Both the position numbers and the translations under genes were made by a program. 64,000 bases of DNA from Terriglobia bacterium (GTDB taxonomy: Bacteria > Acidobacteriota > Terriglobia > 2-12-FULL-54-10), in contig CAXVYR010000004.1 in the NCBI GenBank assembly GCA_963666975.2, forward strand, positions 1,696,001 to 1,760,000. Direction: 5' to 3'. The notes under the pieces were generated by a model. The model searched no databases and was not told the origin of the DNA. It saw only the letters and a list, made by a program, of their open reading frames with translations. Below, one piece after another: positions 1,819 to 55,999 of the stretch; position 1 is the first letter of the stretch; each line of letters begins with the position of its first letter.

Positions 1819-2088
1819 AGCAAATTCATAGTTGCTGTATAGCTTCCCAGAACGCTCGTGAAGCCCCAGAGGGGCGCAAGAGTTTAGCCCACGGCGCCAG
1901 CCGTGGGTGGGAAAGGCCACGCCGGATCAGCCCCGGAAGCGGCGAAAGACGAGGGCCGGAACGTCTTTCGCCCCTCTGTGGCTTGAGGTAATATCAGTCC
2001 CCGTTGTCCCAGGGCTTACGCCCTGGGCTAGATTCTGCCGCCCTTGCAGGGCTGCGAAGCACTCTACACCAACTCTGAAATTGGTCTA
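1816..2088. mobile_element. MITE-like element with ~25-bp imperfect TIRs, TA ends and REP-type hairpin cargo
   Basis: Left TAGAGCAAATTCATAGTTGCTGTA versus reverse complement of right TAGACCAATTTCAGAGTTGGTGTA; internal palindromes cccacggcgccagccgtggg and cccagggcttacgccctggg. Confidence 0.7.
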
Positions 2089-12884: not shown

Positions 12885-12988
12885 CAGACTTCGGGTGGTT
12901 CTGTGGCACATAGAAGCTCCCTCTACCGTTGCTTCCTTCCGGACCTGGCGGGGTTTGAAGGTTTCTATTGCACAGAGCCCGAAGCCTG
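12885..12988 (-). ncRNA. ffs: signal recognition particle small RNA (4.5S)
   Basis: Helix-8 core CCAGGTCCGGAAGGAAGCAACGG in a long hairpin; usual position upstream of dnaX. Confidence 0.92.
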
Positions 12989-25714: not shown

Positions 25715-25872
25715 AATCGCCGGATTTTCCCAATACGTCTCGCTTTCATGCAGCTTTTCACCGCCGGGGCCCGGTCACTGTAGCTGGGAAAAAGCTCCCG
25801 CACTCTTTGGAAGACACTTTTCGGAAAAGGTTGAAAAGGCTCGCCTACAAGTACCGTGCTTTCTTTATCTGG

Positions 25873-27321
25873 GAAGGTGTCCCAAACTCAGTTGCAGGTT
25901 GGGACGGCGGGTTGAGTTCATATTACGCCACTTCCTCCTTGTGAGAGGAAGCAGCGTTTGGACTTCGGCCGAGAATCGATGCCAAAGCCCAGAGATCGTG
26001 ATAACCCATGATCTTCCGGAAATTCTTCTCGGTCAGCAGAAACGCTCCTGCCACCCAGCGCAACGTCATCTCGCCGTCGCGCCAGCGGCAAACATTGCCA
26101 GTCTTTTTCCGCACGCCCGACTGCGGGCTCTCGATGAGGTTCGTGGTTGCCAGGCAGCGGTGGAGGCTGGGAGGAACGTCGGCTCGATTGATCGTAAAGG
26201 TCTCCTCCAACCCTTCGCGCAAGCTGGCGGCTGCTGCCGGATGATCGCACTCGATCATCCCAGCGAGCTTTTTTATGCGCACGATGCCTTCCTCGGCTTG
26301 GGGCAATCGCCAGGCGGCGCGCATCAGCGACCGCACCTGATTCGCCAGCATTTTGTCGCCCTTTGGTAACCGCTCAGCCACGTTGCGCAGCTTATGAGTA
26401 CGGCAACGCTGCACCAGCTGATTGCTGCCGAATACTTCCTCGATCCCCGCGCGGAGCGCTTTGGCGCCGTCGATCACAAACAGATAGCGCTGATCCGTGC
26501 GCAAACCTTGCTGGCGCAGGCGGGTGAGAAGGTCTTTCACCGCAGCGGCGTTTTCGGTCGCGCCCAGTTGAATCCCCAGCACATGCTTGCGGCCCTCGAT
26601 GTCCACGCCCACGGCGCTGATGACGTGGTGGGAGCCGAACCGCATTCCGTCCAGGTAAATCACCAGAATCTCGACCTCCTCCCAGCGCCGCGCCAACAGT
26701 TCTTCCAGCCGCCGCGCTCCTTGCTCGGCCGCTTCCCGGCTCACCTGAGACTTCGACACCCCAGCGCTGTTGGCCATCTCCGGGATCACCTCGCGGTAGT
26801 TCCGCGTCGAAACCCCTTTCAACAGTGCCACGAACATCTCCTCGCCCGTCTTCTCGCTTTTCCGCAGTGCTTCGTAGGCCGGCACCGCTTCTTCCCCTCC
26901 GCCCTTCCGGCGCAGCCGGGGCCGCTCCACCCGCAGCTGGCGATCGGCCAGTTTCACCCTCCCCAATTGCCGGCCATGCCAGCGCACCTCTCCGCTCGCC
27001 TTCCCGGGACTCTTTGGCCCCGCGATTTGCTCTGCGCTCATGCTCAGAATCGTTTCAATCAAACCTCGCCCGGCCCGATCAATCACCTCATCCACCGCCA
27101 GACGCGCCTCCGTGATCAGATCCACCACCGGCAACAGCATCTGTCCGTTGGTTTGGCAAAACTTCTGGATGGTTTCTTCGGCTCCCTTGGAACCCAGTTC
27201 CAAAACGTGATATTTTCCCTTCATTCGGCGGTTCTCCTTCTATAGGATTTAGGCTTGGCCCGATTCTATTCGATTCGGGCCGAACCGCCGTTCAACCTTC
27301 AACTATGTATGGGACACCCTC
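25873..27321 (-). mobile_element. IS256-family element, copy 1 (transposase 25923-27224)
   Basis: ~29-bp imperfect TIRs; 8-bp TSD TTATCTGG; YLDG, IDG, QRCRTH, TTNLIES. Confidence 0.95.
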
Positions 27322-27364
27322 TTATCTGGTTGAGGCAAGGGACGTCTGGGCGTAATCTTGCGGC

Positions 27365-28180
27365 ATGGCTAAGATCACATGGGAGCAGGTTTGGAAATGG
27401 ATCGAGCGTGTCCAGACCTTCAAGTGGCTTGTTGGGCTTGTTGTGGCTGGCGGTATGATGACCTTTATTACCACAGTCCTGCAAGTCCTGGGATATGTCT
27501 CGGGGCCTTGGTTAATTGTGCTCGCTTGCGGAATATTCGCTCTGGTTTTGAGCGGACCAGTTTTCGCAGTAGAAAGAGGCTGGATTGCCCCAAAGCGGCA
27601 GAACAAAACGACTATGGCTACCCAGAAAGAATCAACGGCCACATTCTTGATAACCGATGTCCGCATAGCGAAGAGACATCTCTATCGCTTAAATCGAGAG
27701 CAACAGAGTAAATACACGAACCATGTTCCACAACGTCATCAAATAGAGGATGAGATGCTCGGTCTTGTCGCAATATTTACAAACACTCCACCAGAGAGAA
27801 CGGCTGGCGAATACATCTCGGATGTACATGCGCAGTTATCCTTTCAAAAAGAAGGCGAGATAGAGCCAATACGGATTGACTATGGATGCTGGGTAGATGC
27901 GGATATTAACGAAGTGTCTTTCGCTCGTGGGGGCGCAAATGCCTTGATTCTAGCTGTTCAATTACGAGGGGGGGAACTTAGTTGGTGTGCAGTTGAGGAT
28001 GGAAGGGATCAATATAAAAAATGGCACGCCCCTGCATATTGGGAACTCTCAACACCGGCAGAGCTCTCCGTAACGGTCCGGTTGATCTCAAGCAATGGCA
28101 AATTAAATTCGGAGTATCTCTTTTCGGTTGATACTACGGACGAAGGCTCGATTGAGTATAAGGGAGAGAGCGGTGCCTAG
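27365..28180 (+). CDS. hypothetical membrane-anchored protein (transposon passenger)
   Basis: 271-aa AT-richer ORF with two N-terminal TM helices, inside the TIRs. Confidence 0.7.
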   Translation: MAKITWEQVWKWIERVQTFKWLVGLVVAGGMMTFITTVLQVLGYVSGPWLIVLACGIFALVLSGPVFAVERGWIAPKRQNKTTMATQKESTATFLITDVRIAKRHLYRLNREQQSKYTNHVPQRHQIEDEMLGLVAIFTNTPPERTAGEYISDVHAQLSFQKEGEIEPIRIDYGCWVDADINEVSFARGGANALILAVQLRGGELSWCAVEDGRDQYKKWHAPAYWELSTPAELSVTVRLISSNGKLNSEYLFSVDTTDEGSIEYKGESGA

Positions 28181-28226
28181 CTCGACTAGCTGCCAAGGAG
28201 ATTGTTCAATCAAGAGGTTGTTACCT

Positions 28227-29483
28227 CTACGCTGCAACCGCCTCGCCCCTTTGGTGCGGTTGCAACTTTTGGGGCGGTCTTCCCCCATAGTTGGCCTTCC
28301 TCACGAGCAAGTCGGTCTTGACCATGTTCCAGATTGCCCTCTTGGTCCGGTTGCGATAGTGGATTTTGGCCCGCTTCCGATAGTAACGGTTCGCCCGCTC
28401 GACATGGTTGGAGGTCCGGGGGCAGTCGATGTAGTCCAGGAAGGTGATGGCCTTGGCAAACTGCTCGGTTCGGAGCGTTCGGACCACTCTCTTGAGCGGG
28501 TCGCTGAACGAGTACAACTCATTCTCGATGATCTCCCGACGTTTGCCCCAGGCCTCCAGGTGGGTTTGGTTTCGCGTGAAGAGGCCGAACACCTTCAGGA
28601 CAAGGTCTCGGATCAGGCGGAGGCGGGCGTAGCGGGCGCTCAGTTCAGCAATGGCCGCCCGCTGGGTCTCACTCAGCTTCTCCTCTCGGCTCAAAAGGAC
28701 GTAACGGAGGCCCCACAGCTTGCGGGAATCCTCTTTAGTGCCCACCTTTCGAGCAAGGACGCCCCGAAGGTCGTTGATGGCGGTCAGGACGTTCTTGGTA
28801 ATGGCGCGGGTGTAGTGGAAGATGCAGAGTTGCTGTCTGATCCCCGGCCAAACTTCTTTTGGGACGTTTTGGTAGATAGGTGCACCGTCGGTCACAATGA
28901 CACTTGGATGAATCCCCAAGTCTTTAAGGTGTGTCAGGAATTGGCGAAGCTCTTCTTCATTGGCAGTCCGGCACAATCGAACCGAGAGGGTCTTGTCGTT
29001 CAGAGGGTCCGTGGCAACCAGCACTGCGTAATGATCGTAAAGCTCGTCCACCACCAATACGCCGGAGAAGCCTTCCGCCGCCCACCGCTCATAATCTCGC
29101 TCCATGTCTATCGCATCGGCGGAATCATGGAACCAGCCATACGCTGTCGAGAGTGCGGGGCGGACATGGAAGTCGCGCTCAAGCCGCTTCCGCAAGCCAG
29201 CAAACGTGGTCTTATCCTCCGCCACCGCACTGCGGGCCTTCTCAATGGCCCTTTGGCTGTAGTGTTTCCCCTTTTGGGCCATTGGCGGTTGGAAGCGGAA
29301 AAACTTTTTGCAGGCTTGACAGCGATACACCCCTACCTTAACATTCAATATGGTAGCGCACTCAAGATCAAGGTCTTTGATACGCCTTTCCCGGACCGAG
29401 TGCCTCTTGCACAGCGCCTTACAATTTGGGCACTCGGAACACGGGGGCGCAAACGAATTCGCTGTGGGGTTTCCTTCTGCCAA
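28227..29483 (-). CDS. DDE transposase with N-terminal zinc finger (Mutator/IS256/ISL3-like)
   Basis: CPNC...CQAC; VVDE, VTDG, QLCIFH, TSNHVERANR. Confidence 0.88.
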   Translation of the reverse strand: MAEGNPTANSFAPPCSECPNCKALCKRHSVRERRIKDLDLECATILNVKVGVYRCQACKKFFRFQPPMAQKGKHYSQRAIEKARSAVAEDKTTFAGLRKRLERDFHVRPALSTAYGWFHDSADAIDMERDYERWAAEGFSGVLVVDELYDHYAVLVATDPLNDKTLSVRLCRTANEEELRQFLTHLKDLGIHPSVIVTDGAPIYQNVPKEVWPGIRQQLCIFHYTRAITKNVLTAINDLRGVLARKVGTKEDSRKLWGLRYVLLSREEKLSETQRAAIAELSARYARLRLIRDLVLKVFGLFTRNQTHLEAWGKRREIIENELYSFSDPLKRVVRTLRTEQFAKAITFLDYIDCPRTSNHVERANRYYRKRAKIHYRNRTKRAIWNMVKTDLLVRKANYGGRPPQKLQPHQRGEAVAA

Positions 29484-29551
29484 GGGGGTTTCTCCGTGTC
29501 GATGCCCTGGAGCCTGTTAGTCGCAGACTCCAGGGGTTACTTGCTAGAAGC

Positions 29552-29660
29552 TGGCGGGCCGGGAGGGGGTCGAACCCTCGACCTTCCGCTTAGCAGGCGG
29601 ACGCTCTTGATCCTGGTTTCCCTAGAAGGTCCCGGATCGTTTCCGCTGAGCTACCGGCCC
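29552..29660 (-). tRNA. atypical tRNA-like gene, anticodon GCU, 109 nt with extra D-loop hairpin (copy 1)
   Basis: Acceptor GGGCCGG/CCGGCCC, D stem GCTC/GAGC, anticodon arm TCCGC-CTGCTAA-GCGGA, variable AGGTC, T arm GAGGG-TTCGACC-CCCTC, ends GCCA. Confidence 0.8.
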
Positions 29661-29768
29661 GTTATCTATCAATCTTTCAATCCATACCTCCTAAACCAAG
29701 CGCACATCCGATTAGCGCCTTCAGTCCCTGCTTGTTCCTCTGTGCCGTTGAGCTACGGGGCCACAAAT

Positions 29769-30296
29769 TCATCTACTGTTCCTCTTTGGCGGTTTAGAAG
29801 TCTCAATAAAATTTTCTGCGTCTGGCGTCCAAGAAAAATCATCCTCATCCACTTCCTTTACTATTTCCTTGTAGAAGACGTTGAGGCCTTCCCTCCTTAT
29901 CTCTATCTCATCGTTATCTTTCATGCGATTCAAAATCGTATAAATGGAAGACATTGGATTTTCGTAGGGCGACAAGTCCAACCCCCTCTTGGCAAGCTCG
30001 TCCCTAACGTCCTTGGGAGACAGCCATGCCGAGGCGAGCCCCAAAGCTCCGTGTTCCCCCGAAGTCAAAAACACGTGGCGTATCGCATCAGTAAAGCCGA
30101 GAGTGCTCAAATCATCTATGGAAGCGGCCAATCCGCAAAGGGGGAGCATTTTATTGATAACGGCTTTAATGTTTGCAATTTGTTTTTCAATTTCAACTCT
30201 CTTGGCGTCAAGCTCATCGCGCTCATTGTCCAGGCCGCAAAGGCGCACCCTGAGAGTTTCCAACATTTTTGCGGGATTGTACTCTTGATCTGCCAT
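29769..30296 (-). CDS. coiled-coil plus winged-helix-like hypothetical protein
   Basis: N-terminal heptads; GFTDAIRHV...SPKDVRDEL...SIYTILNRM; identical in copy 2. Confidence 0.7.
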   Translation of the reverse strand: MADQEYNPAKMLETLRVRLCGLDNERDELDAKRVEIEKQIANIKAVINKMLPLCGLAASIDDLSTLGFTDAIRHVFLTSGEHGALGLASAWLSPKDVRDELAKRGLDLSPYENPMSSIYTILNRMKDNDEIEIRREGLNVFYKEIVKEVDEDDFSWTPDAENFIETSKPPKRNSR

Positions 30297-30310
30297 GAGG
30301 TGAACATAAC

Positions 30311-30508
30311 ATGTCTGTAGACAAAGTCAAGGGGGAAATAAATGCGGACCTAGACACGGATGTGGGTCCATGGGATTCATTGATTGCACAGGCCAAAGAG
30401 CAGCGACGCCAAGCTAAGGCAAGCATATTAAAATTATCAAAATCCATTGTCTTTTTTGAAAGAAAGAAAAGGGCGGGTGAGCCGTGGCCTGGGTCAACGC
30501 ACAATTAG
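30311..30508 (+). CDS. small basic helical hypothetical protein
   Basis: 65-aa ORF starting divergently 14 bp from the 175-aa ORF; identical in copy 2. Confidence 0.5.
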   Translation: MSVDKVKGEINADLDTDVGPWDSLIAQAKEQRRQAKASILKLSKSIVFFERKKRAGEPWPGSTHN

Positions 30509-30742
30509 CGGACTACCAGAGAGGACAGAAGTTCTATGCTTGTTTATCATCAACCTTTTCCGAAAAGTCTCAATTTTGGACCTCCTTTCACAGCGAAACA
30601 CACAACCGTGACCTTCGTGGCCCCCCCCCACTTTTGCACGGACGATTTTTCTTACAGCATGGTCATTGCTGCTTCCTGCCTGCCGACGCCGGTATAGACG
30701 CTTTCAGGTTTTTTCGTCAAGCGGGCGTTCTGTGATTTGCTT

Positions 30743-31707: not shown

Positions 31708-33858
31708 CTAGGTCTTTCGGGCCAGTTTCTTTCTCCCAAACCCCGCTAGTCCTGCCAGCCCGGTGCCGAGGAGGAGCAGGGTGGCGGGTTCGGGGATGGG
31801 GTCGGGGGCAGGGGTGTAATTGTATTGAAGAATTGCAGCTCCCGAGACTGAAAAATTCGCAAATCCGCTGGTGATGCTGTGCGCCAAAAGCATTGGGTTT
31901 AGTGGGGACGCTGGTTCCACGAAATCCGATACAAGAGCGCTAATACTGGTGGGCGGCACGTTGGCGCCACTAAAGCCAGGGACGACAAAGCCAAACAGGT
32001 CGGTGGTTTCGTTGAAAGTGAATGTGTAAATGATTGGCCGCGCAAAGCTAACAGGAATTATTGACCCAAAAGCGCCTAACCCGGCACCGGGGAAAATGAA
32101 TAGGGCGGGAGAGTCGAAATCAAAGATATTGACCACCAAGCCCTGTGAATGACTGTGTAATGATAAGAGTACCGGGAATAAGAGACACACCTGACATGAC
32201 TCCGTTGATGGTCACATTCACTGATAGGAGCGTTCCGAGGTCGGGATCAAAGGGCTGTATGCCGAAGGGAACCGCGCCAACAGTCCCGCTGAATGAACTG
32301 CGAGGGTGTCCCATACATAGTTGAAGGTTGAACGGCGGTTCGGCCCGAATCGAATAGAATCGGGCCAAGCCTAAATCCTATAGAAGGAGAACCGCCGAAT
32401 GAAGGGAAAATATCACGTTTTGGAACTGGGTTCCAAGGGAGCCGAAGAAACCATCCAGAAGTTTTGCCAAACCAACGGACAGATGCTGTTGCCGGTGGTG
32501 GATCTGATCACGGAGGCGCGTCTGGCGGTGGATGAGGTGATTGATCGGGCCGGGCGAGGTTTGATTGAAACGATTCTGAGCATGAGCGCAGAGCAAATCG
32601 CGGGGCCAAAGAGTCCCGGGAAGGCGAGCGGAGAGGTGCGCTGGCATGGCCGGCAATTGGGGAGGGTGAAACTGGCCGATCGCCAGCTGCGGGTGGAGCG
32701 GCCCCGGCTGCGCCGGAAGGGCGGAGGGGAAGAAGCGGTGCCGGCCTACGAAGCACTGCGGAAAAGCGAGAAGACGGGCGAGGAGATGTTCGAGGCACTG
32801 TTGAAAGGGGTTTCGACGCGGAACTACCGCGAGGTGATCCCGGAGATGGCCAACAGCGCTGGGGTGTCGAAGTCTCAGGTGAGCCGGGAAGCGGCCGAGC
32901 AAGGAGCGCGGCGGCTGGAAGAACTGTTGGCGCGGCGCTGGGAGGAGGTCGAGATTCTGGTGATTTACCTGGACGGAATGCGGTTCGGCTCCCACCACGT
33001 CATCAGCGCCGTGGGCGTGGACATCGAGGGCCGCAAGCATGTGCTGGGGATTCAACTGGGCGCGACCGAAAACGCCGCTGCGGTGAAAGACCTTCTCACC
33101 CGCCTGCGCCAGCAAGGTTTGCGCACGGATCAGCGCTATCTGTTTGTGATCGACGGCGCCAAAGCGCTCCGCGCGGGGATCGAGGAAGTATTCGGCAGCA
33201 ATCAGCTGGTGCAGCGTTGCCGTACTCATAAGCTGCGCAACGTGGCTGAGCGGTTACCAAAGGGCGACAAAATGCTGGCGAATCAGGTGCGGTCGCTGAT
33301 GCGCGCCGCCTGGCGATTGCCCCAAGCCGAGGAAGGCATCGTGCGCATAAAAAAGCTCGCTGGGATGATCGAGTGCGATCATCCGGCAGCAGCCGCCAGC
33401 TTGCGCGAAGGGTTGGAGGAGACCTTTACGATCAATCGAGCCGACGTTCCTCCCAGCCTCCACCGCTGCCTGGCAACCACGAACCTCATCGAGAGCCCGC
33501 AGTCGGGCGTGCGGAAAAAGACTGGCAATGTTTGCCGCTGGCGCGACGGCGAGATGACGTTGCGCTGGGTGGCAGGAGCGTTTCTGCTGACCGAGAAGAA
33601 TTTCCGGAAGATCATGGGTTATCACGATCTCTGGGCTTTGGCATCGATTCTCGGCCGAAGTCCAAACGCTGCTTCCTCTCACAAGGAGAAAGTGGCGTAA
33701 TATGAACTCAACCCGCCGTCCCAACCTGCAACTGAGTTTGGGACACCTTCTGAACTGCTGACGATCTGCGTCAGTATGGGGTCGGCCCGTAGTTCACGCG
33801 CTCCGACCAGGACAAATAGTGCCATCAAAAGAGCCAAGCCACTCCGCTTCAGTTGCAT
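31708..33858 (-). pseudogene. PEP-CTERM surface protein split by IS256 and frameshifted
   Basis: Signal peptide from ATG 33858 joins in frame to SSFSGTVG...FDPDLGTLLSV once the IS is removed; frameshift near 32123; C-terminal IPEPATLLLLGTGLAGLAGFGRKK. Confidence 0.82.
32302..33750 (+). mobile_element. IS256-family element, copy 2 (transposase 32399-33700)
   Basis: Same 1449-bp element; 8-bp TSD TGAACTGC; two amino-acid differences from copy 1. Confidence 0.95.
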
Positions 33859-34465: not shown

Positions 34466-34538
34466 AGAGGCACCGACACAAATCAACGTAGTGCTGAACT
34501 GGTTTGAAGAGCTGAAGCAGCGGGTGCCCGCGCAGTAA
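34466..34538 (+). pseudogene. C-terminal remnant of a PD40-repeat or Ser/Thr kinase type protein
   Basis: APTQINVVLNWFEELKQRVP is a characteristic C-terminus of such proteins. Confidence 0.5.
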
Positions 34539-34859
34539 TCTGAACCGCGACCGTCACGGAACACACGGGCCACTAATTTGACGCCTTTCTCATAGAAGTG
34601 CCCTTGGCCTTCGTAAGATTGCTGTAAGAAACCGTCGCTTCCACGATCACCCGCGAGTAACGGCGCAGTGTAGAACGAAGTCGCTCACTCAGCGGGTGCC
34701 CGCGCAGTAATCTGAACCGCGACCGTCACGGAACACACGGGCCACTAATTTGACGCCTTTCTCATAGAAGTGCCCTTGGCCTTCGTAAGATTGCTGTAAG
34801 AAACCGTCGCTTCCACGATCACCCGCGAGTAACGGCGCAGTGTAGAACGAAGTCGCTCA
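34518..34859. repeat. exact 170-bp tandem duplication
   Basis: 34518-34687 is repeated at 34690-34859. Confidence 0.9.
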
Positions 34860-35241: not shown

Positions 35242-36654
35242 TTACCTGCCGGCGGCTACCCCCGGCTTATAGGGGAACTCCCGGCCGGAAGCGGCGATCA
35301 ACACGTACTCGGTCTCCTGCCCGCTGGTCTGGATGCGGACGCTTTCAATCGGCTCGCCCTCATACATCTTCGGGAACATCCGCGCCAGAGCGCCAGCGGC
35401 ATCGATGGATATCACCGTGAAGGCGCTCATGGAACTGAAGCCCAGCGGAAGAGTGACGTCCGTGATCCGGGCTGTGCAGTTTCCCGCTCCCGGCGCCGGG
35501 CAAGTGATCGTCGCCGTGGAGTTTGCAGCCCCCCCCTGCGCCGGATCGAGCGGCGTCACCACCAGCGTGACGGTTTTTAGGGCAGGAAACGGGTTGGAGA
35601 CCGTGTTGGGACCGGCGATCAGATCCACGGTGACGCTGGAGGCTGGCCCCGACTGGTTGGGCATGGTCACATCAGCGGCATTGAGGACCTGGGTCTGGCC
35701 GACTATGCCTCCCGAGGCGTTGAGGATACCCGTCCGGCCGGGCGTGTCCTGCGACCCAGTGACCGTCACCGTATTGTCAATATCGCTGGTATCGGTGAGT
35801 GTGGCAAATTGGATGAACGCGGTCGGCGCGGAGGGCAATACAATGGGTCCCGGCTCGGAGAAGGCGGTTACATTTGCATTGCCTAGCAAAGTGCCGGTGA
35901 ACGAGAGCGTGAAAGCCTCTGACCTTATTATTCCCTCTTCCGAGGTAGCGCTACAACTGATGCAGCCGTTGTCGGCATTGAGGGTGCCAGTGCCGGCGAT
36001 CGTGCTCGCTACCAAGCGAATTATGCCTCCGGTGCCTCCCGAGCCTCGAGACCCAAAACAGCAACCATTGGCGCCGCCTTTCGCGGTCACAGTGCCATTT
36101 ACCGTGATGGTGCCGTCGGCGGCGATTAGGATGGCCCCGCCGCCCCCGCCGCCGCCGGAGCCGCCCCGCAACAGCGTCACAACGTCATTGCCAGCCGGGA
36201 TGACGGTGCCGCCCACGGTGGTTCCCGTGGTAAAGAACTTCGCTCCTGCTGGGGGATTAGATCCTCCAACGCCGCCCCCGGGGCCGCCCCCAGGACCAGC
36301 GCCAGGCGAGCCCGCCGCAGGCGACAAAATTCCTCCAGTGCCGCCGTCGCCGCCCCGATAGCCTCCCGGACCGCCTGCGCCCCCTGCGCCCCGCACGAAG
36401 GAGGTCGCCATCGCACCGGCCGTCCCGGCCACGCTAAGAGCGGTGATGCCGTCGATGGTCACATTGCCGGTGGACCGAATGATCACCGGGGTGTTGTCAG
36501 GGTTGGGCACAAAGTCCAGAGTGACACCAAAGTTTTGGGCGCCCCCTAGAGCAGACCGCCGCAGGGTGAAGTTGCCGACATCGAGCAGACCATCCGGAAA
36601 CGACGTGGGCAAGGTCTGAGGGGGGTTCGGGAAGACCTGCGATGTGATATCCAC
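35242..36654 (-). pseudogene. glycine-rich exported protein, 5'-truncated by IS3
   Basis: 470-codon ORF with GGxGG repeats whose start abuts the IS3 left end. Confidence 0.7.
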
Positions 36655-38167
36655 TGTGCCCCGTCAGGGCTTGTTGGACAGGTAGAGGGTAATAGTTAAG
36701 GTGATGTTTTTGGCTCATCGTAGAGACTGAAAGGAACGAAGATGAGACAAAAACAAGACGACAGGGGGGCGGTCGAGAAGGCCGTCCGGGAGATCAAACG
36801 CAGGACGCGGCGCAGGTTCAGCCCGGAAGACAAAATCCGCATTGTATTGCAGGGACTTCGCGGCGAGGACAGCATCGCGGAGCTGTGCCGCCGCGAGGGG
36901 CTGCACCAGAACCAGTATTACCGCTGGAGCAAGGAGTTTCTGGAGGCTGGCCGCAAGCGGCTGGCGGGCGACATAGACCGTGAGGCAACCAGTGGCGAAG
37001 TCAAGACTCTGCGGGAGCAGGCCGTACAGCTGAAAGAGGCCCTGGCCGAGGCTATGCTGGAAAATCGCCTGCTAAAAAAAAGCGTGATCGGGGATGGGGA
37101 GGAACATACATGAGATACCCTGCCTCGGAGAAGCTGGAGATCATCTGCACGGTGGAGCAATCTGCCCTGGGGGTGCGCCGGACGCTGCAGCAGGTTGGCA
37201 TTCCCAGATCGACGTTTTACAACTGGTACGACCGCTATGTGTCGGAAGGCTTTGATGGGCTGGAAGACAAAAAACCCGATCCTGGCCCTGTCTGGAACAA
37301 GGTGCCGGAGGAGATAACTCAGCAGTTGGTGACGTTAGCCCTGGCCGAGCCCGATCTGTCGTCACGCGAGCTGGCGGTGCGTTTTACCGAGGAAAGGCGG
37401 TATTACCTTTCTGAATCGACGGTTTACCGCGTCCTGAAAAGCCATGACCTGATTACCGCGCCAGCCTTTATTGTCCTGAAAGCGGCGGAACGGTTCGCCA
37501 ACCCGACCACGGCGGTCAACCAGCTCTGGCAGACCGACTTCACCTACCTGAAAGTCATCGGTTGGGGCTGGTTCTACCTGTCCACGGTGCTGGACGACTT
37601 CTCGCGCTATATCATCGCCTGGCGGCTGTGCAAAACCATGAGCGCAAGTGACGTCTCGGCCACGTTGCGGGATGCTTTGCAAGCCACCGGCCTCGACCGC
37701 GTGGGCGCCCGGCACAGACCTCGCCTCCTGAGCGACAACGGGCCGTGCTACGTCTCTTCCGAACTGCAATCATGGCTGGCAGAAAACAGCGTGCCGCATA
37801 CTCGCGGCAAGCCCTATCACCCCATGACGCAGGGCAAGATCGAACGCTGGCACCGAACTCTGAAAGACCGCATCCTGCTCAACAACTATTACCTGCCAGA
37901 AGAGCTGGAGCGGCAGATCGATGCCTTCGTCAACCACTACAACACCAACCGATACCATAGAAAGCCTGAACAACCTGACACCGTATGACGTTTTTACAGG
38001 CCAAGGCAGTGCCATCCTGCAAAAACGGGATCGCATCAAAGAGAAAACTATGATCTTAAGAAAACGGTTGCACTTCAAAAGAAGGGCAGCCTAACATCAA
38101 CCCAGAGGAGCCTGAACGCCACCTTATCTTTTTATGCTCTGTGTCCAACATTATCTGACGACGTACA
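36655..38167 (+). mobile_element. IS3-family element (orfA 36742-37113; orfB from 37110, extra frameshift near 37958)
   Basis: TG...CA imperfect TIRs; A8G slippery site at 37074-37082; WQTDFTY, SDNG, GKIERWH; no TSD. Confidence 0.92.
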
Positions 38168-40366
38168 GTCCGGGGGCAGTCGATGTAGTCCAGGAAGGTG
38201 ATGGCCTTGGCAAACCACTCTCTTGAGCGGGTCGCTGAACGATGGCCTTGGCAAACTGCTCGGTTCGGAGCGTTCGGACCACTCTCTTGAGCGGGTCGCT
38301 GAACGAGTACAACTCATTCTCGATGATCTCCCGACGTTTGCCCCAGGCCTCCAGGTGGGTTTGGTTTCGCGTGAAGAGGCCGAACACCTTCAGGACAAGG
38401 TCTCGGATCAGGCGGAGGCGGGCGTAGCGGGCGCTCAGTTCAGCAATGGCCGCCCGCTGGGTCTCACTCAGCTTCTCCTCTCGGCTCAAAAGGACGTAAC
38501 GGAGGCCCCACAGCTTGCGGGAATCCTCTTTAGTGCCCACCTTTCGAGCAAGGACGCCCCGAAGGTCGTTGATGGCGGTCAGGACGTTCTTGGTAATGGC
38601 GCGGGTGTAGTGGAAGATGCAGAGTTGCTGTCTGATCCCCGGCCAAACTTCTTTTGGGACGTTTTGGTAGATAGGTGCACCGTCGGTCACAATGACACTT
38701 GGATGAATCCCCAAGTCTTTAAGGTGTGTCAGGAATTGGCGAAGCTCTTCTTCATTGGCAGTCCGGCACAATCGAACCGAGAGGGTCTTGTCGTTCAGAG
38801 GGTCCGTGGCAACCAGCACTGCGTAATGATCGTAAAGCTCGTCCACCACCAATACGCCGGAGAAGCCTTCCGCCGCCCACCGCTCATAATCTCGCTCCAT
38901 GTCTATCGCATCGGCGGAATCATGGAACCAGCCATACGCTGTCGAGAGTGCGGGGCGGACATGGAAGTCGCGCTCAAGCCGCTTCCGCAAGCCAGCAAAC
39001 GTGGTCTTATCCTCCACCACCGCACTGCGGGCCTTCTCAATGGCCCTTTGGCTGTAGTGTTTCCCCTTTTGGGCCATTGGCGGTTGGAAGCGGAAAAACT
39101 TTTTGCAGGCTTGACAGCGATACACCCCTACCTTAACATTCAATATGGTAGCGCACTCAAGATCAAGGTCTTTGATACGCCTTTCCCGGACCGAGTGCCT
39201 CTTGCACAGCGCCTTACAATTTGGGCACTCGGAACACGGGGGCGCAAACGAATTCGCTGTGGGGTTTCCTTCTGCCAAGGGGGTTTCTCCGTGTCGATGC
39301 CCTGGAGCCTGTTAGTCGCAGACTCCAGGGGTTACTTGCTAGAAGCTGGCGGGCCGGGAGGGGGTCGAACCCTCGACCTTCCGCTTAGCAGGCGGACGCT
39401 CTTGATCCTGGTTTCCCTAGAAGGTCCCGGATCGTTTCCGCTGAGCTACCGGCCCGTTATCTATCAATCTTTCAATCCATACCTCCTAAACCAAGCGCAC
39501 ATCCGATTAGCGCCTTCAGTCCCTGCTTGTTCCTCTGTGCCGTTGAGCTACGGGGCCACAAATTCATCTACTGTTCCTCTTTGGCGGTTTAGAAGTCTCA
39601 ATAAAATTTTCTGCGTCTGGCGTCCAAGAAAAATCATCCTCATCCACTTCCTTTACTATTTCCTTGTAGAAGACGTTGAGGCCTTCCCTCCTTATCTCTA
39701 TCTCATCGTTATCTTTCATGCGATTCAAAATCGTATAAATGGAAGACATTGGATTTTCGTAGGGCGACAAGTCCAACCCCCTCTTGGCAAGCTCGTCCCT
39801 AACGTCCTTGGGAGACAGCCATGCCGAGGCGAGCCCCAAAGCTCCGTGTTCCCCCGAAGTCAAAAACACGTGGCGTATCGCATCAGTAAAGCCGAGAGTG
39901 CTCAAATCATCTATGGAAGCGGCCAATCCGCAAAGGGGGAGCATTTTATTGATAACGGCTTTAATGTTTGCAATTTGTTTTTCAATTTCAACTCTCTTGG
40001 CGTCAAGCTCATCGCGCTCATTGTCCAGGCCGCAAAGGCGCACCCTGAGAGTTTCCAACATTTTTGCGGGATTGTACTCTTGATCTGCCATGAGGTGAAC
40101 ATAACATGTCTGTAGACAAAGTCAAGGGGGAAATAAATGCGGACCTAGACACGGATGTGGGTCCATGGGATTCATTGATTGCACAGGCCAAAGAGCAGCG
40201 ACGCCAAGCTAAGGCAAGCATATTAAAATTATCAAAATCCATTGTCTTTTTTGAAAGAAAGAAAAGGGCGGGTGAGCCGTGGCCTGGGTCAACGCACAAT
40301 TAGCGGACTACCAGAGAGGACAGAAGTTCTATGCTTGTTTATCATCAACCTTTTCCGAAAAGTCTC
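38168..40366. mobile_element. tRNA-carrying transposon, copy 2 (left part lost at the IS3 junction)
   Basis: Near-identical to 28414-30571; transposase 3' end scrambled at ~38215-38240 and truncated; also carries the 175-aa (39564-40091) and 65-aa (40106-40303) ORFs. Confidence 0.88.
39347..39455 (-). tRNA. atypical tRNA-like gene, anticodon GCU (copy 2)
   Basis: Identical to 29552-29660. Confidence 0.8.
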
Positions 40367-55922: not shown

Positions 55923-55999
55923 GCGCCTGTAGCTCAGCTGGATAGAGCGTTGGTCTCCGGAACCAAAGGTCGGAGGTTCGAATCCTCTCAGGCGTACCA
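55923..55999 (+). tRNA. tRNA-Arg(CCG)
   Basis: Canonical cloverleaf, anticodon loop CT-CCG-GA, GGTTCGAATCC, CCA end. Confidence 0.97.

What the first reader, a model, noticed from the sequence alone, without database searches (positions are those of the whole stretch)
29552..29660. Non-canonical tRNA: Ser anticodon GCU on an Arg-like class I body with an extra 30-nt hairpin in the D-loop
Seen: all four stems pair perfectly and CCA is encoded, which argues against simple decay. The variable loop is only 5 nt. The D-loop reads AGCGGAAAC-[GATCCGGGACCTTCTAGGGAAACCAGGATC]-AA. Known: bacterial tRNA-Ser needs a long variable arm for SerRS, whereas ArgRS identity elements are A20, C35, U/G36 and A/G73, and all of these appear present here. 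Inference: it could be an Arg-charged reader of AGC/AGU serine codons (a missense suppressor), a tRNA with a D-loop intron as seen in some archaea, or an uncharged mimic or anticodon-nuclease decoy.
Basis: partly seen in the sequence, partly recalled or inferred. Interest (0 to 1): 0.78.

Follow-up and report, generated by a model that had tools for sequence, protein, structure and literature searches.

The report
Five-armed odd tRNA carried by transposon
This is a real tRNA-shaped gene with a serine-codon anticodon on an arginine-type body and an extra hairpin arm, and it rides inside a jumping-gene element just upstream of that element's transposase, as related odd tRNAs do in other soil-type bacteria.

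Summary
On the minus strand, 29660→29552, lies a 109-nt cloverleaf with 21 of 21 stem pairs, anticodon GCU, a 5-nt variable loop, encoded CCA and a 30-nt hairpin in the D-loop after G18-G19-A20.

It is not a lone oddity or a decayed host gene. It is cargo of a 3.3-kb ISL3-like insertion sequence (22-nt inverted repeats, 8-bp target duplications, 3 copies in the genome), 69 nt upstream of the transposase.

- Relatives of this IS carry other irregular tRNAs, including an allo-tRNA-like one, in the same slot.
- A separate IS1-like transposase clade does the same.
- Eleven distinct class-I tRNAs with an A/GCU anticodon and a D-loop extra arm were found, mostly in Acidobacteriota. Their stems covary strongly.

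The body derives from tRNA-Arg: A20, C35, U36 and G73 are present, and the anticodon arm equals a relative's tRNA-Arg(CCU) except at position 34. The intron reading is not supported: no splicing endonuclease was found, and RNA-library contigs keep the insert. Self-recoding of the transposase is not supported either.

My best reading is an IS-borne tRNA module processed out of the IS transcript. Arg-for-Ser missense decoding remains open. Novelty: a new variant of the irregular acidobacterial tRNAs.

The parts
29552..29660 (-). Irregular tRNA gene, 109 nt. It has a class-I arginine-type body, anticodon GCU (29594-29592), a 5-nt variable loop, G73 and encoded CCA.
   Evidence: Sequence. 21 of 21 stem pairs. 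Rfam tRNA 27.1 bits on part of it. ARAGORN calls it once the arm is removed. Family covariation.
29609..29638 (-). Extra arm: a 30-nt hairpin inserted in the D-loop after G18-G19-A20-A-A-C and before A-A21.
   Evidence: The 34-nt D-loop stretch containing it folds at -11.2 kcal/mol, z = -2.9. Inserts at the same position but with unrelated sequences occur in 10 other distinct bacterial tRNAs. It is retained in RNA-library contigs X2 and X4.
39347..39455 (-). Second, 100% identical copy of the tRNA. It sits in a truncated copy of the same element (38241-40366 matches 28446-30571).
29737..29762 (-). Remnant of the 5' part of another class-I tRNA (GGCCCCGUAGCUCAACGG...), starting 6 nt after the ORF175 stop codon.
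   Evidence: Sequence. 23 nt match at 91% the 5' end of the class-I tRNA(GCU) upstream of the homologous transposase in L161. The region does not fold better than shuffles.
29505..29535 (-). 12-bp hairpin between the tRNA 3' end and the transposase start. It is not followed by a U-run.
   Evidence: Read. It is conserved, with one compensating change and one mismatch, in the sister element L149, whose tRNA-to-start spacer is 84% identical over 74 nt. No terminator-like site was found.
28227..29483 (-). DDE transposase, 418 aa, a distant ISL3-family relative with an N-terminal zinc-ribbon/DUF6431 region.
   Evidence: Pfam DDE_Tnp_ISL3 scores 40.3 bits against a cut-off of 23. NCBIfam ISL3 scores 72.7 bits, below its cut-off of 180. 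42 homologues were found. Conserved D146, D159, D199 and E362 columns are intact.
29769..30296 (-). ORF175, a small protein of unknown function upstream of the tRNA, possibly winged-helix.
   Evidence: No Pfam or NCBIfam family. A homologue (26% identity over 110 aa) sits at the same position in L149. The nearest Atlas clusters are unnamed Acidobacteriota proteins; the nearest named family is HARE-HTH at 0.89. A promoter-like site lies at 30330-30303 on the minus strand.
27365..28180 (+). ORF271, a passenger ORF convergent with the transposase. It has a hydrophobic N-terminus and no known family.
25813..25834 (.). Left terminal inverted repeat of the element.
   Evidence: Inverted pair I2, 22 nt, 95% complementary. 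Copy C shows this end contiguous with 27322 onward, without the IS256.
30550..30571 (.). Right terminal inverted repeat of the element.
   Evidence: Similarity between copies A and B stops exactly here.
25873..27321 (.). IS256-family element inserted inside the left end of the tRNA-bearing element. It is not part of that element.
   Evidence: Many near-identical genome copies (about 65 hits over 1,400 bp by my tally of the printed one search list). Pfam Transposase_mut, E = 2e-34.

Best explanation
**What it is (shown).** The locus is a genuine irregular tRNA gene that is an integral part of a 3.3-kb ISL3-like insertion sequence (25813-30571, not counting an IS256 that landed in it). The gene order on the minus strand is: ORF175, tRNA remnant, five-armed tRNA, conserved hairpin, transposase.

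The tRNA descends from tRNA-Arg(CCU/UCU). It keeps everything needed to fold into an L-shape and to be cut out by the tRNA-processing enzymes:
- a 7/5 acceptor/T stack
- the G18G19 and T-loop elbow
- U8, A14 and A21
- an encoded CCA

Its anticodon has changed to GCU, and it carries an extra hairpin arm at D-loop position 20a/b.

**How it most likely works (inferred).** The element is transcribed from a promoter upstream of ORF175. RNase P and the 3'-end maturation enzymes excise the tRNA-shaped module. This 'punctuation' separates the transposase message from upstream or read-through transcription and leaves it beginning at a stable 5' hairpin. It also releases a stable five-armed tRNA-like RNA.

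The element's need is for a tRNA shape, not for one particular anticodon. Close relatives carry quite different irregular tRNAs in the same slot.

Whether the released RNA is then charged is not settled. ArgRS is the only synthetase whose known identity set it fully carries. Whether it reaches the ribosome is also unsettled.
For: **Inside the IS**
- Three genome copies share identical flanks up to 22-nt inverted repeats.
- There are 8-bp target duplications: AATTTTGG is exact, and CTTTGGAA matches with a one-base offset. They are swapped between copies A and C.

**Slot conserved, occupant swapped**
- Of 10 metagenome loci of homologous transposases with at least 400 nt of upstream sequence, 7 have ARAGORN tRNAs 70-450 nt upstream on the same strand. 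Their anticodons are UAG, UAA, ACC plus UUC, and GCU.
- One more locus has a weak tRNA-like hit, and 2 have none.
- In L149 the transposase is 63% identical, an ORF175 homologue is present, and the spacer with its hairpin is 84% identical. Yet the tRNA is an 88-nt class-II type that the Rfam tRNA-Sec model scores at 51.6 bits.

**A second transposase family does the same**
- 5 of 6 IS1-like homologues at 44% identity or more have an irregular tRNA 80-140 nt upstream.
- 0 of 8 at 39% or less do.
- Three of the five were already known from my anticodon-pattern search, so only L173 and L176 are independent.

**Co-transcription is plausible**
- There is no promoter-like or terminator-like site between ORF175 and the transposase. 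A promoter-like site lies at 30330-30303.
- RNA-library contigs from 3 studies, 100% identical to the window, bridge tRNA and flanks with the insert kept: X1 29375-29622, X2 29458-29668, X3 29469-29632, X4 29545-29714.

**Supernumerary to host decoding**
- The genome has a canonical class-II tRNA-Ser(GCU) and five tRNA-Arg.
- 5 of 5 other carrier genomes checked also have a canonical tRNA-Ser(GCU).

**Codon use inside the transposases**
- Codons cognate to the IS-borne tRNAs follow the standard code. For example, AGC encodes Ser76, which is invariant in the ten closest relatives and Ser or Thr in the wider set of homologues. Conserved Arg positions use CGN or AGG.
Against: - A pure processing signal would not need an intact anticodon arm. 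Yet all 5 anticodon-stem pairs covary. A20 is kept in 21 of 22 family members by my reading of the alignment.
- 11 of 14 bacterial-labelled D-loop-insert tRNAs have A/GCU rather than the ancestral C/UCU. This looks like selection on decoding or on synthetase binding.
- Only 4 of 11 distinct D-arm tRNAs sit directly upstream of a transposase: the window, L038, L136 and L054. Three more have an IS1595 transposase within 4 kb in another arrangement. Three have none in the flank examined, and one lies at a contig end.
- Contigs cannot prove transcription, transcript ends or a single transcript.
- Promoter scans are consensus matches only.
- No processing, charging or transposition experiment exists.
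Confidence: 0.5

Rival explanations
1. Mobile missense tRNA. The RNA is charged with arginine by the host's single ArgRS and reads AGC/AGU on the ribosome, giving low-level Ser-to-Arg mistranslation that the IS spreads. The extra arm tunes charging or ribosome use.
For: - The full ArgRS identity set is present: A20, C35, U36 and G73. Within this genome A20 is specific to tRNA-Arg (5 of 5 Arg tRNAs, 0 of 43 others).
- The anticodon arm equals a relative's tRNA-Arg(CCU) except at position 34.
- The anticodon stem covaries.
- The bias to A/GCU is 11 of 14.
- There is precedent: acidobacterial allo-tRNAs insert Ser at Leu and Arg codons in E. coli, and are linked to transposons and toxin-antitoxin systems (PMC5389517, sections 14 and 16 read).
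Against: - The element's own transposase uses AGC at a Ser that is invariant in the ten closest relatives (S76; Ser or Thr in the wider set) and does not avoid AGY: 7 of 17 Ser codons.
- Sister elements carry tRNAs with unrelated anticodons, so no single codon reassignment is the common theme.
- The hairpin sits next to A20, where ArgRS reads the D-loop (recalled from structures, not tested).
- No dedicated second ArgRS exists.
Confidence: 0.25
2. Non-canonical serine tRNA. The D-loop arm emerges where the long variable arm of class-II tRNAs does. SerRS therefore accepts it and it reads AGY correctly as Ser.
For: - The extra arm is tied to serine-codon anticodons (11 of 14).
- This copy has G73, G2:C71 and C11:G24.
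- Position 20a/b lies against the base of the variable arm in tRNA-Ser (recalled, not tested).
Against: - The discriminator is A in 7, G in 3 and U in 1 of the 11 distinct D-arm tRNAs, whereas bacterial tRNA-Ser has G73 (recalled).
- Eleven relatives with the same anticodons have no extra arm at all.
- Two inserts (L050, L136) do not form a stable hairpin.
- A canonical tRNA-Ser(GCU) is present in 6 of 6 carrier genomes checked.
Confidence: 0.06
3. Functionless hitch-hiker. A captured tRNA-Arg gene that mutated in the anticodon, took a chance insertion, and is merely carried along by the IS.
For: - Copy C has a broken T-stem and a 4-nt deletion in the arm.
- All three difference clusters between copies A and C (between 29551 and 30501, i.e. 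apart from those at the IS256 junctions) fall in 29563-29766.
- Every copy of the element is damaged in some way.
Against: - Stems pair 21 of 21 in the two identical copies.
- Covariation is strong across 22 relatives.
- Extra arms recur at the same D-loop site with unrelated sequences, and there is a compensating change between L054 and L067.
- The slot is conserved in two transposase families.
Confidence: 0.1
4. Uncharged tRNA mimic or decoy. The RNA is stable but never aminoacylated. It acts by occupying tRNA-binding proteins, for example as a stringent-response trigger at the ribosomal A site or as a sponge for an anticodon nuclease or toxin.
For: - The tRNA architecture is intact, with an arm placed beside the ArgRS contact at A20.
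- Some relatives lie next to toxin-antitoxin-type genes: a RelB-like antitoxin by L067 and Fic by L050.
- The same association is noted for allo-tRNAs in PMC5389517 (section 16 read).
Against: No nuclease or toxin gene lies in this element. The association with toxin-antitoxin genes is sporadic. Nothing here tests the idea directly.
Confidence: 0.07
5. Intron-containing tRNA. The 30 nt are spliced out to give a 79-nt tRNA.
For: Archaeal tRNA-Arg genes with D-loop introns fit the same search pattern (72 archaeal-labelled loci).
Against: - The genome has no tRNA splicing-endonuclease domain; the control search found it in 4 of 4 archaea.
- Two RNA-library contigs span the insert with no joint.
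- The insert is too short for a group I or II intron.
Confidence: 0.02

Closest known systems
Allo-tRNAs and 'polycistrons of irregular tRNAs' of Acidobacteria (Mukai et al. 2017, NAR, PMC5389517; abstract and sections 14 and 16 read, supplements not seen)
   Same: - Both are non-canonical tRNAs in Acidobacteria whose anticodons do not fit the body's identity.
- Both are supernumerary.
- Both are linked to transposon-related genes or toxin-antitoxin systems.
- The sister element L149 carries an allo-tRNA-like gene in the very slot occupied here.
   Different: - Allo-tRNAs have an 8/4 or 9/3 acceptor/T stack, a long variable arm and serine identity.
- This one has 7/5, a 5-nt variable loop, an arginine identity set and an extra arm in the D-loop.
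- The fixed position upstream of DDE transposases is not described in the passages I read.
Bacterial tRNA-Arg(CCU/UCU)
   Same: - The A20, C35, U36 and A/G73 identity set.
- The D-arm GCUC...GGA..AGAGC.
- An anticodon arm identical to a relative's tRNA-Arg(CCU) except at position 34.
   Different: Position 34 is G, so the anticodon reads serine codons AGC/AGU. A 30-nt hairpin is inserted after A20. The gene is on an insertion sequence.
Archaeal tRNA genes with non-canonical introns in the D-loop
   Same: An insert of 18-48 nt at a similar D-loop position in tRNAs with NCU anticodons.
   Different: The archaeal ones keep the Arg anticodons (72 of 72 are C/UCU) and are removed by a splicing endonuclease. 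This genome has none, and the insert is kept in RNA-library contigs.
Deliberately mistranslating bacterial tRNAs (the Streptomyces tRNA-ProX family; passages of the review PMC11415595 read)
   Same: An accessory tRNA whose identity and anticodon disagree.
   Different: tRNA-ProX comes with its own synthetase isoform. Here there is one ArgRS and one SerRS, and the partner gene is a transposase.
tRNA punctuation of polycistronic transcripts (mitochondria; the tRNA-tufB operon of E. coli), recalled, not from a call
   Same: A tRNA embedded in a longer transcript is excised by RNase P and 3' processing, which defines the ends of neighbouring messages.
   Different: Those tRNAs are ordinary decoders. 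Use of this principle by a bacterial insertion sequence, with an irregular tRNA, is my inference.

Membership tests
tRNA (Rfam RF00005 / ARAGORN cloverleaf) | Scores above the family's gathering threshold, or is called by a tRNA finder. | tested here: inconclusive
   Rfam gives 27.1 bits against a gathering score of 29, on positions 9-63 of the model only. ARAGORN does not call it. It is called in 4 of 4 trials once the arm is deleted by script.
tRNA (Rfam RF00005 / ARAGORN cloverleaf) | Four covarying stems and the conserved tertiary-contact nucleotides: U8, A14, G18G19, A21, U33, T-loop UUCRA. | tested here: met
   21 of 21 pairs. Covariation: 97% of cells paired, 16 of 21 pairs changed on both sides, 0 of 500 shuffles reach this. 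The nucleotides were read. The D-stem and parts of the loops were fixed by my search patterns.
Bacterial tRNA-Ser (class II) | A long variable arm, which SerRS needs. | tested here: not met
   The variable loop is AGGUC, 5 nt. The genome's canonical tRNA-Ser(GCU) is 94 nt.
Bacterial tRNA-Arg | ArgRS identity nucleotides A20, C35, U36 or G36, and A73 or G73. | tested here: met
   Read. In this genome A20 occurs only in the 5 tRNA-Arg among 48 tRNAs. The list of identity elements itself is recalled from the E. coli literature.
Bacterial tRNA-Arg | An anticodon that reads an arginine codon (NCG, or U/CCU). | tested here: not met
   The anticodon is GCU, which reads AGC/AGU.
Bacterial tRNA-Arg | Is aminoacylated with arginine. 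| not testable with these tools
   Needs in vitro charging or acid-gel northern blots.
Intron-containing tRNA (archaeal type) | A splicing endonuclease in the genome and a spliced mature form. | tested here: not met
   PF01974 gives no match in a genome that is 98.9% complete; the control search found it in 4 archaea. RNA-library contigs X2 and X4 span the insert with no joint. Contigs can miss rare forms.
Allo-tRNA (Mukai et al. 2017) | An 8/4 or 9/3 acceptor/T-stem stack with a long variable arm. | tested here: not met
   The stack is 7/5 with a 5-nt variable loop.
ISL3-family insertion sequence (the carrier) | A DDE transposase of the ISL3 type. | tested here: inconclusive
   Pfam DDE_Tnp_ISL3 scores 40.3 bits, over its cut-off of 23. 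NCBIfam transpos_ISL3 scores 72.7 bits, under its cut-off of 180. It is a distant relative.
ISL3-family insertion sequence (the carrier) | Terminal inverted repeats and 8-bp target-site duplications (family values recalled from ISfinder). | tested here: met
   22-nt inverted repeats, 95% complementary. The 8-bp flanks AATTTTGG (exact) and CTTTGGAA (one-base offset) are shared crosswise between copies A and C.

The most novel reading that the evidence does not exclude
The five-armed RNA is a working tRNA. It is charged, most likely with arginine, and used on the ribosome at AGC/AGU. If so, insertion sequences of at least two transposase families in Acidobacteriota would be vehicles for portable codon-ambiguity modules. 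A hairpin arm in the D-loop would then be a third viable tRNA architecture beside class I and class II.
Probability: 0.22. Interest if true: 0.88.

Novelty: new variant of a known kind. Interest (0 to 1): 0.7.

Why it matters
Irregular tRNAs of Acidobacteria have been catalogued, but their purpose is unknown. This locus gives them a concrete genetic address: a fixed slot just upstream of DDE transposases, inside the mobile element, with the occupant swapped between close relatives.

That turns a vague 'associated with transposons' into testable questions.
- Does an insertion sequence need a tRNA-shaped RNA to express or restrain its transposase?
- Does it spread a mistranslating tRNA?

The locus also shows that the D-loop can carry a whole extra arm at position 20a/b while every other tRNA feature stays under selection. 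This bears on tRNA engineering and on tRNA finders, which miss these genes: ARAGORN and Rfam at gathering thresholds both failed here.

Tried and rejected
**Self-recoding of the transposase.**
- I asked whether AGY-coded serines in the window's transposase fall on conserved arginine columns.
- The 7 AGY codons lie on Ser/Thr or variable columns. Conserved Arg columns use CGN or AGG.
- The same check for the cognate codons of L149, L150, L156, L160 and L161 also followed the standard code. Rejected.

**A repeated mobile mini-element as the source of the 30-nt insert.** The genome has no other copy of it; only the three tRNA copies match. Rejected.

**Close homologues of the tRNA plus its upstream fragment.** The 219-nt query found no whole-length match in 60 relatives, only ordinary tRNA 3' halves.

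**A dedicated synthetase paralogue.** There is one ArgRS hit and one SerRS hit.

**Terminal repeats enclosing tRNA plus transposase in the IS1-like loci.** No convincing inverted repeats were found. Whether the tRNA lies inside those elements is open.

**Coverage gaps in the RNA-library contigs.**
- They covered only 29375-29714 of 29300-30300.
- The contigs cannot show level, strand, ends or a single transcript.

**The 'tRNA-Ser(AGA)' that ARAGORN calls at C3:934710.** It has a poor structure and I take it for a false call.

**The upstream tRNA-like fragment folded alone.** It is no better than shuffles, z = -0.04.

**Literature.**
- Searches found no description of an Arg-type A/GCU tRNA with a D-loop arm, or of tRNAs in a fixed slot of insertion sequences.
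- Term look-ups in PMC11415595, PMC7609411, PMC7590224 and PMC5389517 and my reading of sections 14 and 16 of PMC5389517 found none either.
- Supplementary Figures S5-S7 of PMC5389517 ('five-stem-junction', 'E-loop' tRNAs) could not be seen and may show similar shapes.

**Earlier notes of this scan.** There were none for this place, and two unrelated odd-tRNA notes turned up by words.
Full report
**1.

Read on the minus strand from 29660 to 29552, the 109 nt form a cloverleaf:
- acceptor GGGCCGG/CCGGCCC
- D-stem GCUC/GAGC
- anticodon stem UCCGC/GCGGA with loop CUGCUAA (anticodon GCU)
- variable loop AGGUC
- T-arm GAGGG-UUCGACC-CCCUC
- G73 and CCA

All 21 stem pairs are standard. The D-loop reads AGCGGAAAC, then a 30-nt insert (29638-29609), then AA. 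The 34-nt D-loop stretch containing the insert, folded alone, forms a hairpin at -11.2 kcal/mol, z = -2.9 against shuffles.

Automatic finders miss the gene.
- ARAGORN reports only tRNA-Arg(CCG) at 55923-55999.
- Rfam at gathering thresholds reports nothing here.
- In E-value mode the tRNA model reaches 27.1 bits (gathering 29) on 29563-29613 only.
- With the arm deleted by script, ARAGORN calls a tRNA(GCU) in 4 of 4 trials.

The free energy of the whole molecule is unremarkable, z = -1.23, and its MFE is not the cloverleaf. The case therefore rests on comparison, not on thermodynamics.

**2. It is cargo of an insertion sequence.**

The genome (4.23 Mb, 4 contigs) holds three copies. Two are 100% identical, at window 29552-29660 and 39347-39455. 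One is 90% identical, at C4:2129369-2129476. All three lie in a repeated unit.

The unit's ends are a 22-nt inverted repeat at 25813-25834 and 30550-30571. Copy C shows the left end contiguous with 27322 onward. So the 1,449-bp IS256-family element at 25873-27321 is a later insertion.

The 8-bp flanks are shared crosswise between copies A and C. AATTTTGG is exact and CTTTGGAA matches with a one-base offset. This indicates target duplications plus an inversion by recombination between the two copies.

On the minus strand the unit reads:
- ORF175 (30296-29769)
- a 26-nt remnant of another tRNA's 5' part (29762-29737)
- the five-armed tRNA
- a 12-bp hairpin (29535-29505)
- a 418-aa DDE transposase (29483-28227)
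- a convergent ORF271 (27365-28180)

The transposase is a distant ISL3 relative: Pfam 40.3 bits over a cut-off of 23, NCBIfam 72.7 bits under a cut-off of 180.

A 730-aa ORF on the plus strand across the locus is the antisense of these genes, and I take it as spurious.

No copy of the element is pristine.
- A carries the IS256.
- B is truncated at 38241.
- C has two IS256 insertions, one of them exactly at the tRNA 3' end with a 9-bp duplication.

**3. The body is arginine-type.**

ARAGORN finds 48 tRNAs in the genome, including a canonical 94-nt tRNA-Ser(GCU) and five tRNA-Arg. An A directly after G18G19 occurs in 5 of those 48, and they are exactly the five tRNA-Arg. The odd tRNA has it, together with C35, U36 and G73.

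The best-matching canonical tRNAs are Arg(UCU) with 59 of 79 identities, then Lys(UUU) and Arg(CCU). In a related genome the anticodon arm plus variable loop of a tRNA-Arg(CCU) is identical to the odd tRNA's except at position 34.

So the gene looks like a tRNA-Arg(CCU) with C34 changed to G and a hairpin added.

**4. It belongs to a family.**

*First search.* A pattern for class-I tRNAs with an A/GCU anticodon hit 12 of 401 genomes of the same class, the window's own included. The reversed-pattern control hit 3 times. The hits include:
- 76-nt tRNAs with ACU that share this tRNA's acceptor stem, D-arm and G73 (L027, L028)
- one tRNA with a different 22-nt hairpin at the same D-loop site (L025)

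*Second search.* A pattern allowing 18-48 extra D-loop bases and any NCU anticodon was run over one genome per species. These sort as follows:

| Group | Loci | Anticodon |
|---|---|---|
| Archaeal-labelled, with D-loop inserts | 72 | all C/UCU |
| Bacterial-labelled, short tandem duplications of the tRNA 5' part | 29 | all C/UCU |
| Bacterial-labelled, true inserts | 11 | A/GCU |
| Bacterial-labelled, true inserts | 3 | C/UCU |
| Not re-matched by my script | 2 | - |

Of the 3 bacterial-labelled C/UCU inserts, at least one (L120) has a sequence like the archaeal rows.

The 11 A/GCU loci are 10 distinct sequences. They come from Acidobacteriaceae, Terriglobia, Blastocatellia and Acidobacteriales MAGs, a Solirubrobacteraceae MAG, a MAG labelled Saccharimonadales, and a Bradyrhizobium isolate. 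With the window's tRNA that makes 11 distinct D-arm tRNAs.

*Structure in the family.*
- In the 22-sequence alignment A2 (11 with arm, 11 without), 97% of pair cells are standard pairs.
- 16 of 21 pairs change on both sides, and 109 cells change on both sides.
- No shuffle of 500 reaches any measure, and sliding the partners drops pairing to 31-47%.
- Caveats: the D-stem never varies because my patterns fixed it. For each row I chose the 5' start that maximised pairing, which favours the acceptor stem somewhat.
- The inserts are unrelated in sequence but start 0-3 nt after A20.
- None of the 11 insert z-scores is extreme (z = -3.9 to +0.7); the lowest are the window (z = -2.9) and L105 (z = -3.9). 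RNAfold draws a hairpin for 9 of 11, including L054/L067 with a T-A to C-G compensating change, and L038 and L115. The L050 fold is no better than shuffles and L136 does not fold at all.

**5. The link to transposases is the main new fact.**

*The window's own transposase family.* It is rare: 42 proteins in the large protein collection. A metagenome scan gave 22 loci. Of the 10 with at least 400 nt upstream of the gene:
- 7 carry ARAGORN tRNAs on the same strand: L149 (UAG), L150 and L151 (UAA), L156 and L157 (UAA), L160 (ACC and UUC in tandem), L161 (a 74-nt class-I GCU)
- L158 has a weak tRNA-like hit to the tmRNA model
- L152 and L153 have none

*The closest element, L149.*
- Its transposase is 63% identical.
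- It has an ORF175 homologue.
- Its spacer from the CCA to the start codon is 84% identical over 74 nt and contains the same hairpin.
- Yet its tRNA is an 88-nt class-II molecule that the Rfam tRNA-Sec model scores at 51.6 bits, as allo-tRNAs do.

The remnant at 29762-29737 matches the 5' end of the L161 tRNA.

*A second, unrelated clade.* An IS1-like clade shows the same habit. Of 6 homologues at 44% identity or more, 5 have an irregular tRNA 80-140 nt upstream. Of 8 at 39% or less, none does. Three of the five were already in hand from the anticodon search. The independent ones are L176 and L173.

L173 is in the window's own genome, near C2:228.2 kb. There a 101-nt class-II tRNA-like gene with anticodon GUA and CCA, missed by ARAGORN but scoring 46.9 bits with Rfam, is followed by a hairpin and the transposase.

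*Among the 11 distinct D-arm tRNAs:*
- 4 lie directly upstream of a transposase: the window, L038, L136 and L054
- 3 have an IS1595-type transposase within 4 kb in another arrangement
- 3 have none in the flank read
- 1 is at a contig end

**6. What it does not do.**

*It does not replace the host's serine tRNA.* A canonical tRNA-Ser(GCU) is present here and in 5 of 5 other carrier genomes checked.

*It does not decode a private code for its transposase.*
- The 7 AGY codons of the gene fall on Ser/Thr or variable columns. S76, encoded by AGC, is invariant in the ten closest relatives.
- Conserved Arg columns use CGN or AGG.
- The cognate codons in five sister elements also follow the standard code.

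*It is not an archaeal-type intron.* The genome has no splicing endonuclease, and RNA-library contigs keep the insert.

*It has no private synthetase.* There is one ArgRS and one SerRS.

**7. Expression.**

Metatranscriptome contigs, 100% identical to the window, lie on the locus. They come from three studies, one of whose runs is only guessed to be RNA.

| Run | Span |
|---|---|
| X1 | 29375-29622 |
| X2 | 29458-29668 |
| X3 | 29469-29632 |
| X4 | 29545-29714 |

X2 and X4 span the insert without a joint. X1 to X3 run from the tRNA into the transposase start. This is compatible with a precursor that contains the arm. However, contigs cannot prove transcription, ends or a single transcript, and DNA carry-over is possible.

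The only promoter-like site on the minus strand near the genes is at 30330-30303, upstream of ORF175. No terminator-like site was found.

**8. Mechanism.**

I commit to the following, at about even odds. The tRNA is a built-in module of the element's transcript. Because it keeps the 12-bp acceptor/T stack, the elbow and the CCA, RNase P and the 3' maturation enzymes will excise it.

That excision cuts the transposase message free of whatever was transcribed upstream. The message then begins at the conserved hairpin. A stable five-armed RNA is released.

- Shown: position, conservation of the slot, exchange of its occupant, structural selection.
- Inferred: co-transcription, cleavage, and any effect on transposase expression.

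The chief rival, at about one in four, is that the released RNA is also a working Arg-charged reader of AGC/AGU. The intact, covarying anticodon arm, the A20 kept in 21 of 22 relatives, and the 11-of-14 bias to A/GCU are better explained by that than by processing alone.

The remaining rivals are weaker, for the reasons given under each: a serine identity through the arm, a decoy, a dead passenger and an intron.

One detail is unexplained. All three clusters of difference between copies A and C between 29551 and 30501 fall in 29563-29766. They are a 4-nt deletion in the arm, CCCCT to TTTTC plus 3 extra bases in the T-stem, and 3 bases just before the remnant. The remaining differences the script listed sit at the alignment ends, where IS256 joins copy C. 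ORF175 and 2,237 bp on the other side are identical.

**9. Comparison and novelty.**

The nearest described things are the allo-tRNAs and 'irregular tRNA polycistrons' of Acidobacteria. Mukai et al. (PMC5389517, sections 14 and 16 read) noted transposon and toxin-antitoxin neighbours for them and considered missense or regulatory roles.

This tRNA fails the defining allo-tRNA features: it is 7/5, not 8/4 or 9/3, and has no long variable arm. I therefore file it as a new variant of that kind of thing, not as a member.

My four literature searches turned up no report of an Arg-type A/GCU tRNA with a D-loop arm, or of a fixed tRNA slot in insertion sequences. Nor did the term look-ups and the sections of PMC5389517 that I read. 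The supplements of PMC5389517 were not available and may show related shapes.

Noticed in passing
G000:C2, about 228,130-228,440 (outside the window); locus L173:2569-2666: A 101-nt class-II tRNA-like gene with anticodon GUA, a very long variable arm and CCA. It is followed by a GC-rich hairpin and an IS1-like transposase, and preceded by a TTGACA / 17 nt / CATAAT promoter-like site. ARAGORN misses it; Rfam tRNA scores it at 46.9 bits.
   Followed up: partly
window 25873-27321 and 32302-33750, and elsewhere in the genome: An IS256-family element (433-aa Mutator-type transposase) is present in many near-identical copies: about 65 hits over 1,400 bp at more than 95% identity, by my tally of the printed BLAST list. 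Two inverted copies flank the tRNA-bearing region in the window.
   Followed up: partly
window 36653-38167: A second high-copy element of about 1.5 kb, with about 30 near-full-length genome hits at 97-99.9% by my tally. It abuts the truncated copy B of the tRNA-bearing element. I did not characterise it.
   Followed up: no
window 25813-30571 versus C4:2126990-2133230: The 8-bp flanks of copies A and C of the tRNA-bearing element are exchanged. This implies an inversion of about 400 kb by recombination between the two copies.
   Followed up: partly
window 29563-29766 versus copy C: The differences between copies A and C, apart from those at the IS256 junctions, are confined to the tRNA and the bases just upstream. 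They include a run CCCCT to TTTTC in the T-stem. The flanking 0.5 kb and 2.2 kb are identical. Cause unknown.
   Followed up: partly
loci L034, L049, L066, L074, L078, L086, L091, L098, L099, L110, L114, L124, L135, L143 and others: Many bacterial tRNA-Arg(C/UCU) genes are preceded by one or two head-to-tail extra copies of their own first 15-24 nt (acceptor 5' strand plus D-arm start). 29 bacterial-labelled loci in the scan show this. Unexplained; possibly scars of elements that integrate at the 5' side.
   Followed up: no
locus L104 (Maribellus sp.): A bacterial tRNA with the proper Arg anticodon UCU and a 39-nt non-duplicate insert in the D-loop. Of the three bacterial-labelled inserts with a proper Arg anticodon, it is the only one from a cultured isolate rather than a MAG.
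   Followed up: no
loci L056, L107/L137 and L142: Three D-arm inserts share a GGGG...CCCC closing stem and an inner GGUUCC(A/G)A stretch that looks like a T-loop motif.
   Followed up: no
window 1862-1907 (-), 2008-2053 (+) and 12886-12984 (-): Two Acido-Lenti-1 RNAs (50.5 and 57.3 bits) in opposite orientation 100 nt apart, and the bacterial small SRP RNA (73.2 bits).
   Followed up: no
window 34511-34854: Two tandem copies of a 172-nt unit, 98% identical.
   Followed up: no
window 28128-30320 (+): A 730-aa open frame runs antisense through the transposase, the tRNA and ORF175. It is almost certainly not a gene.
   Followed up: partly
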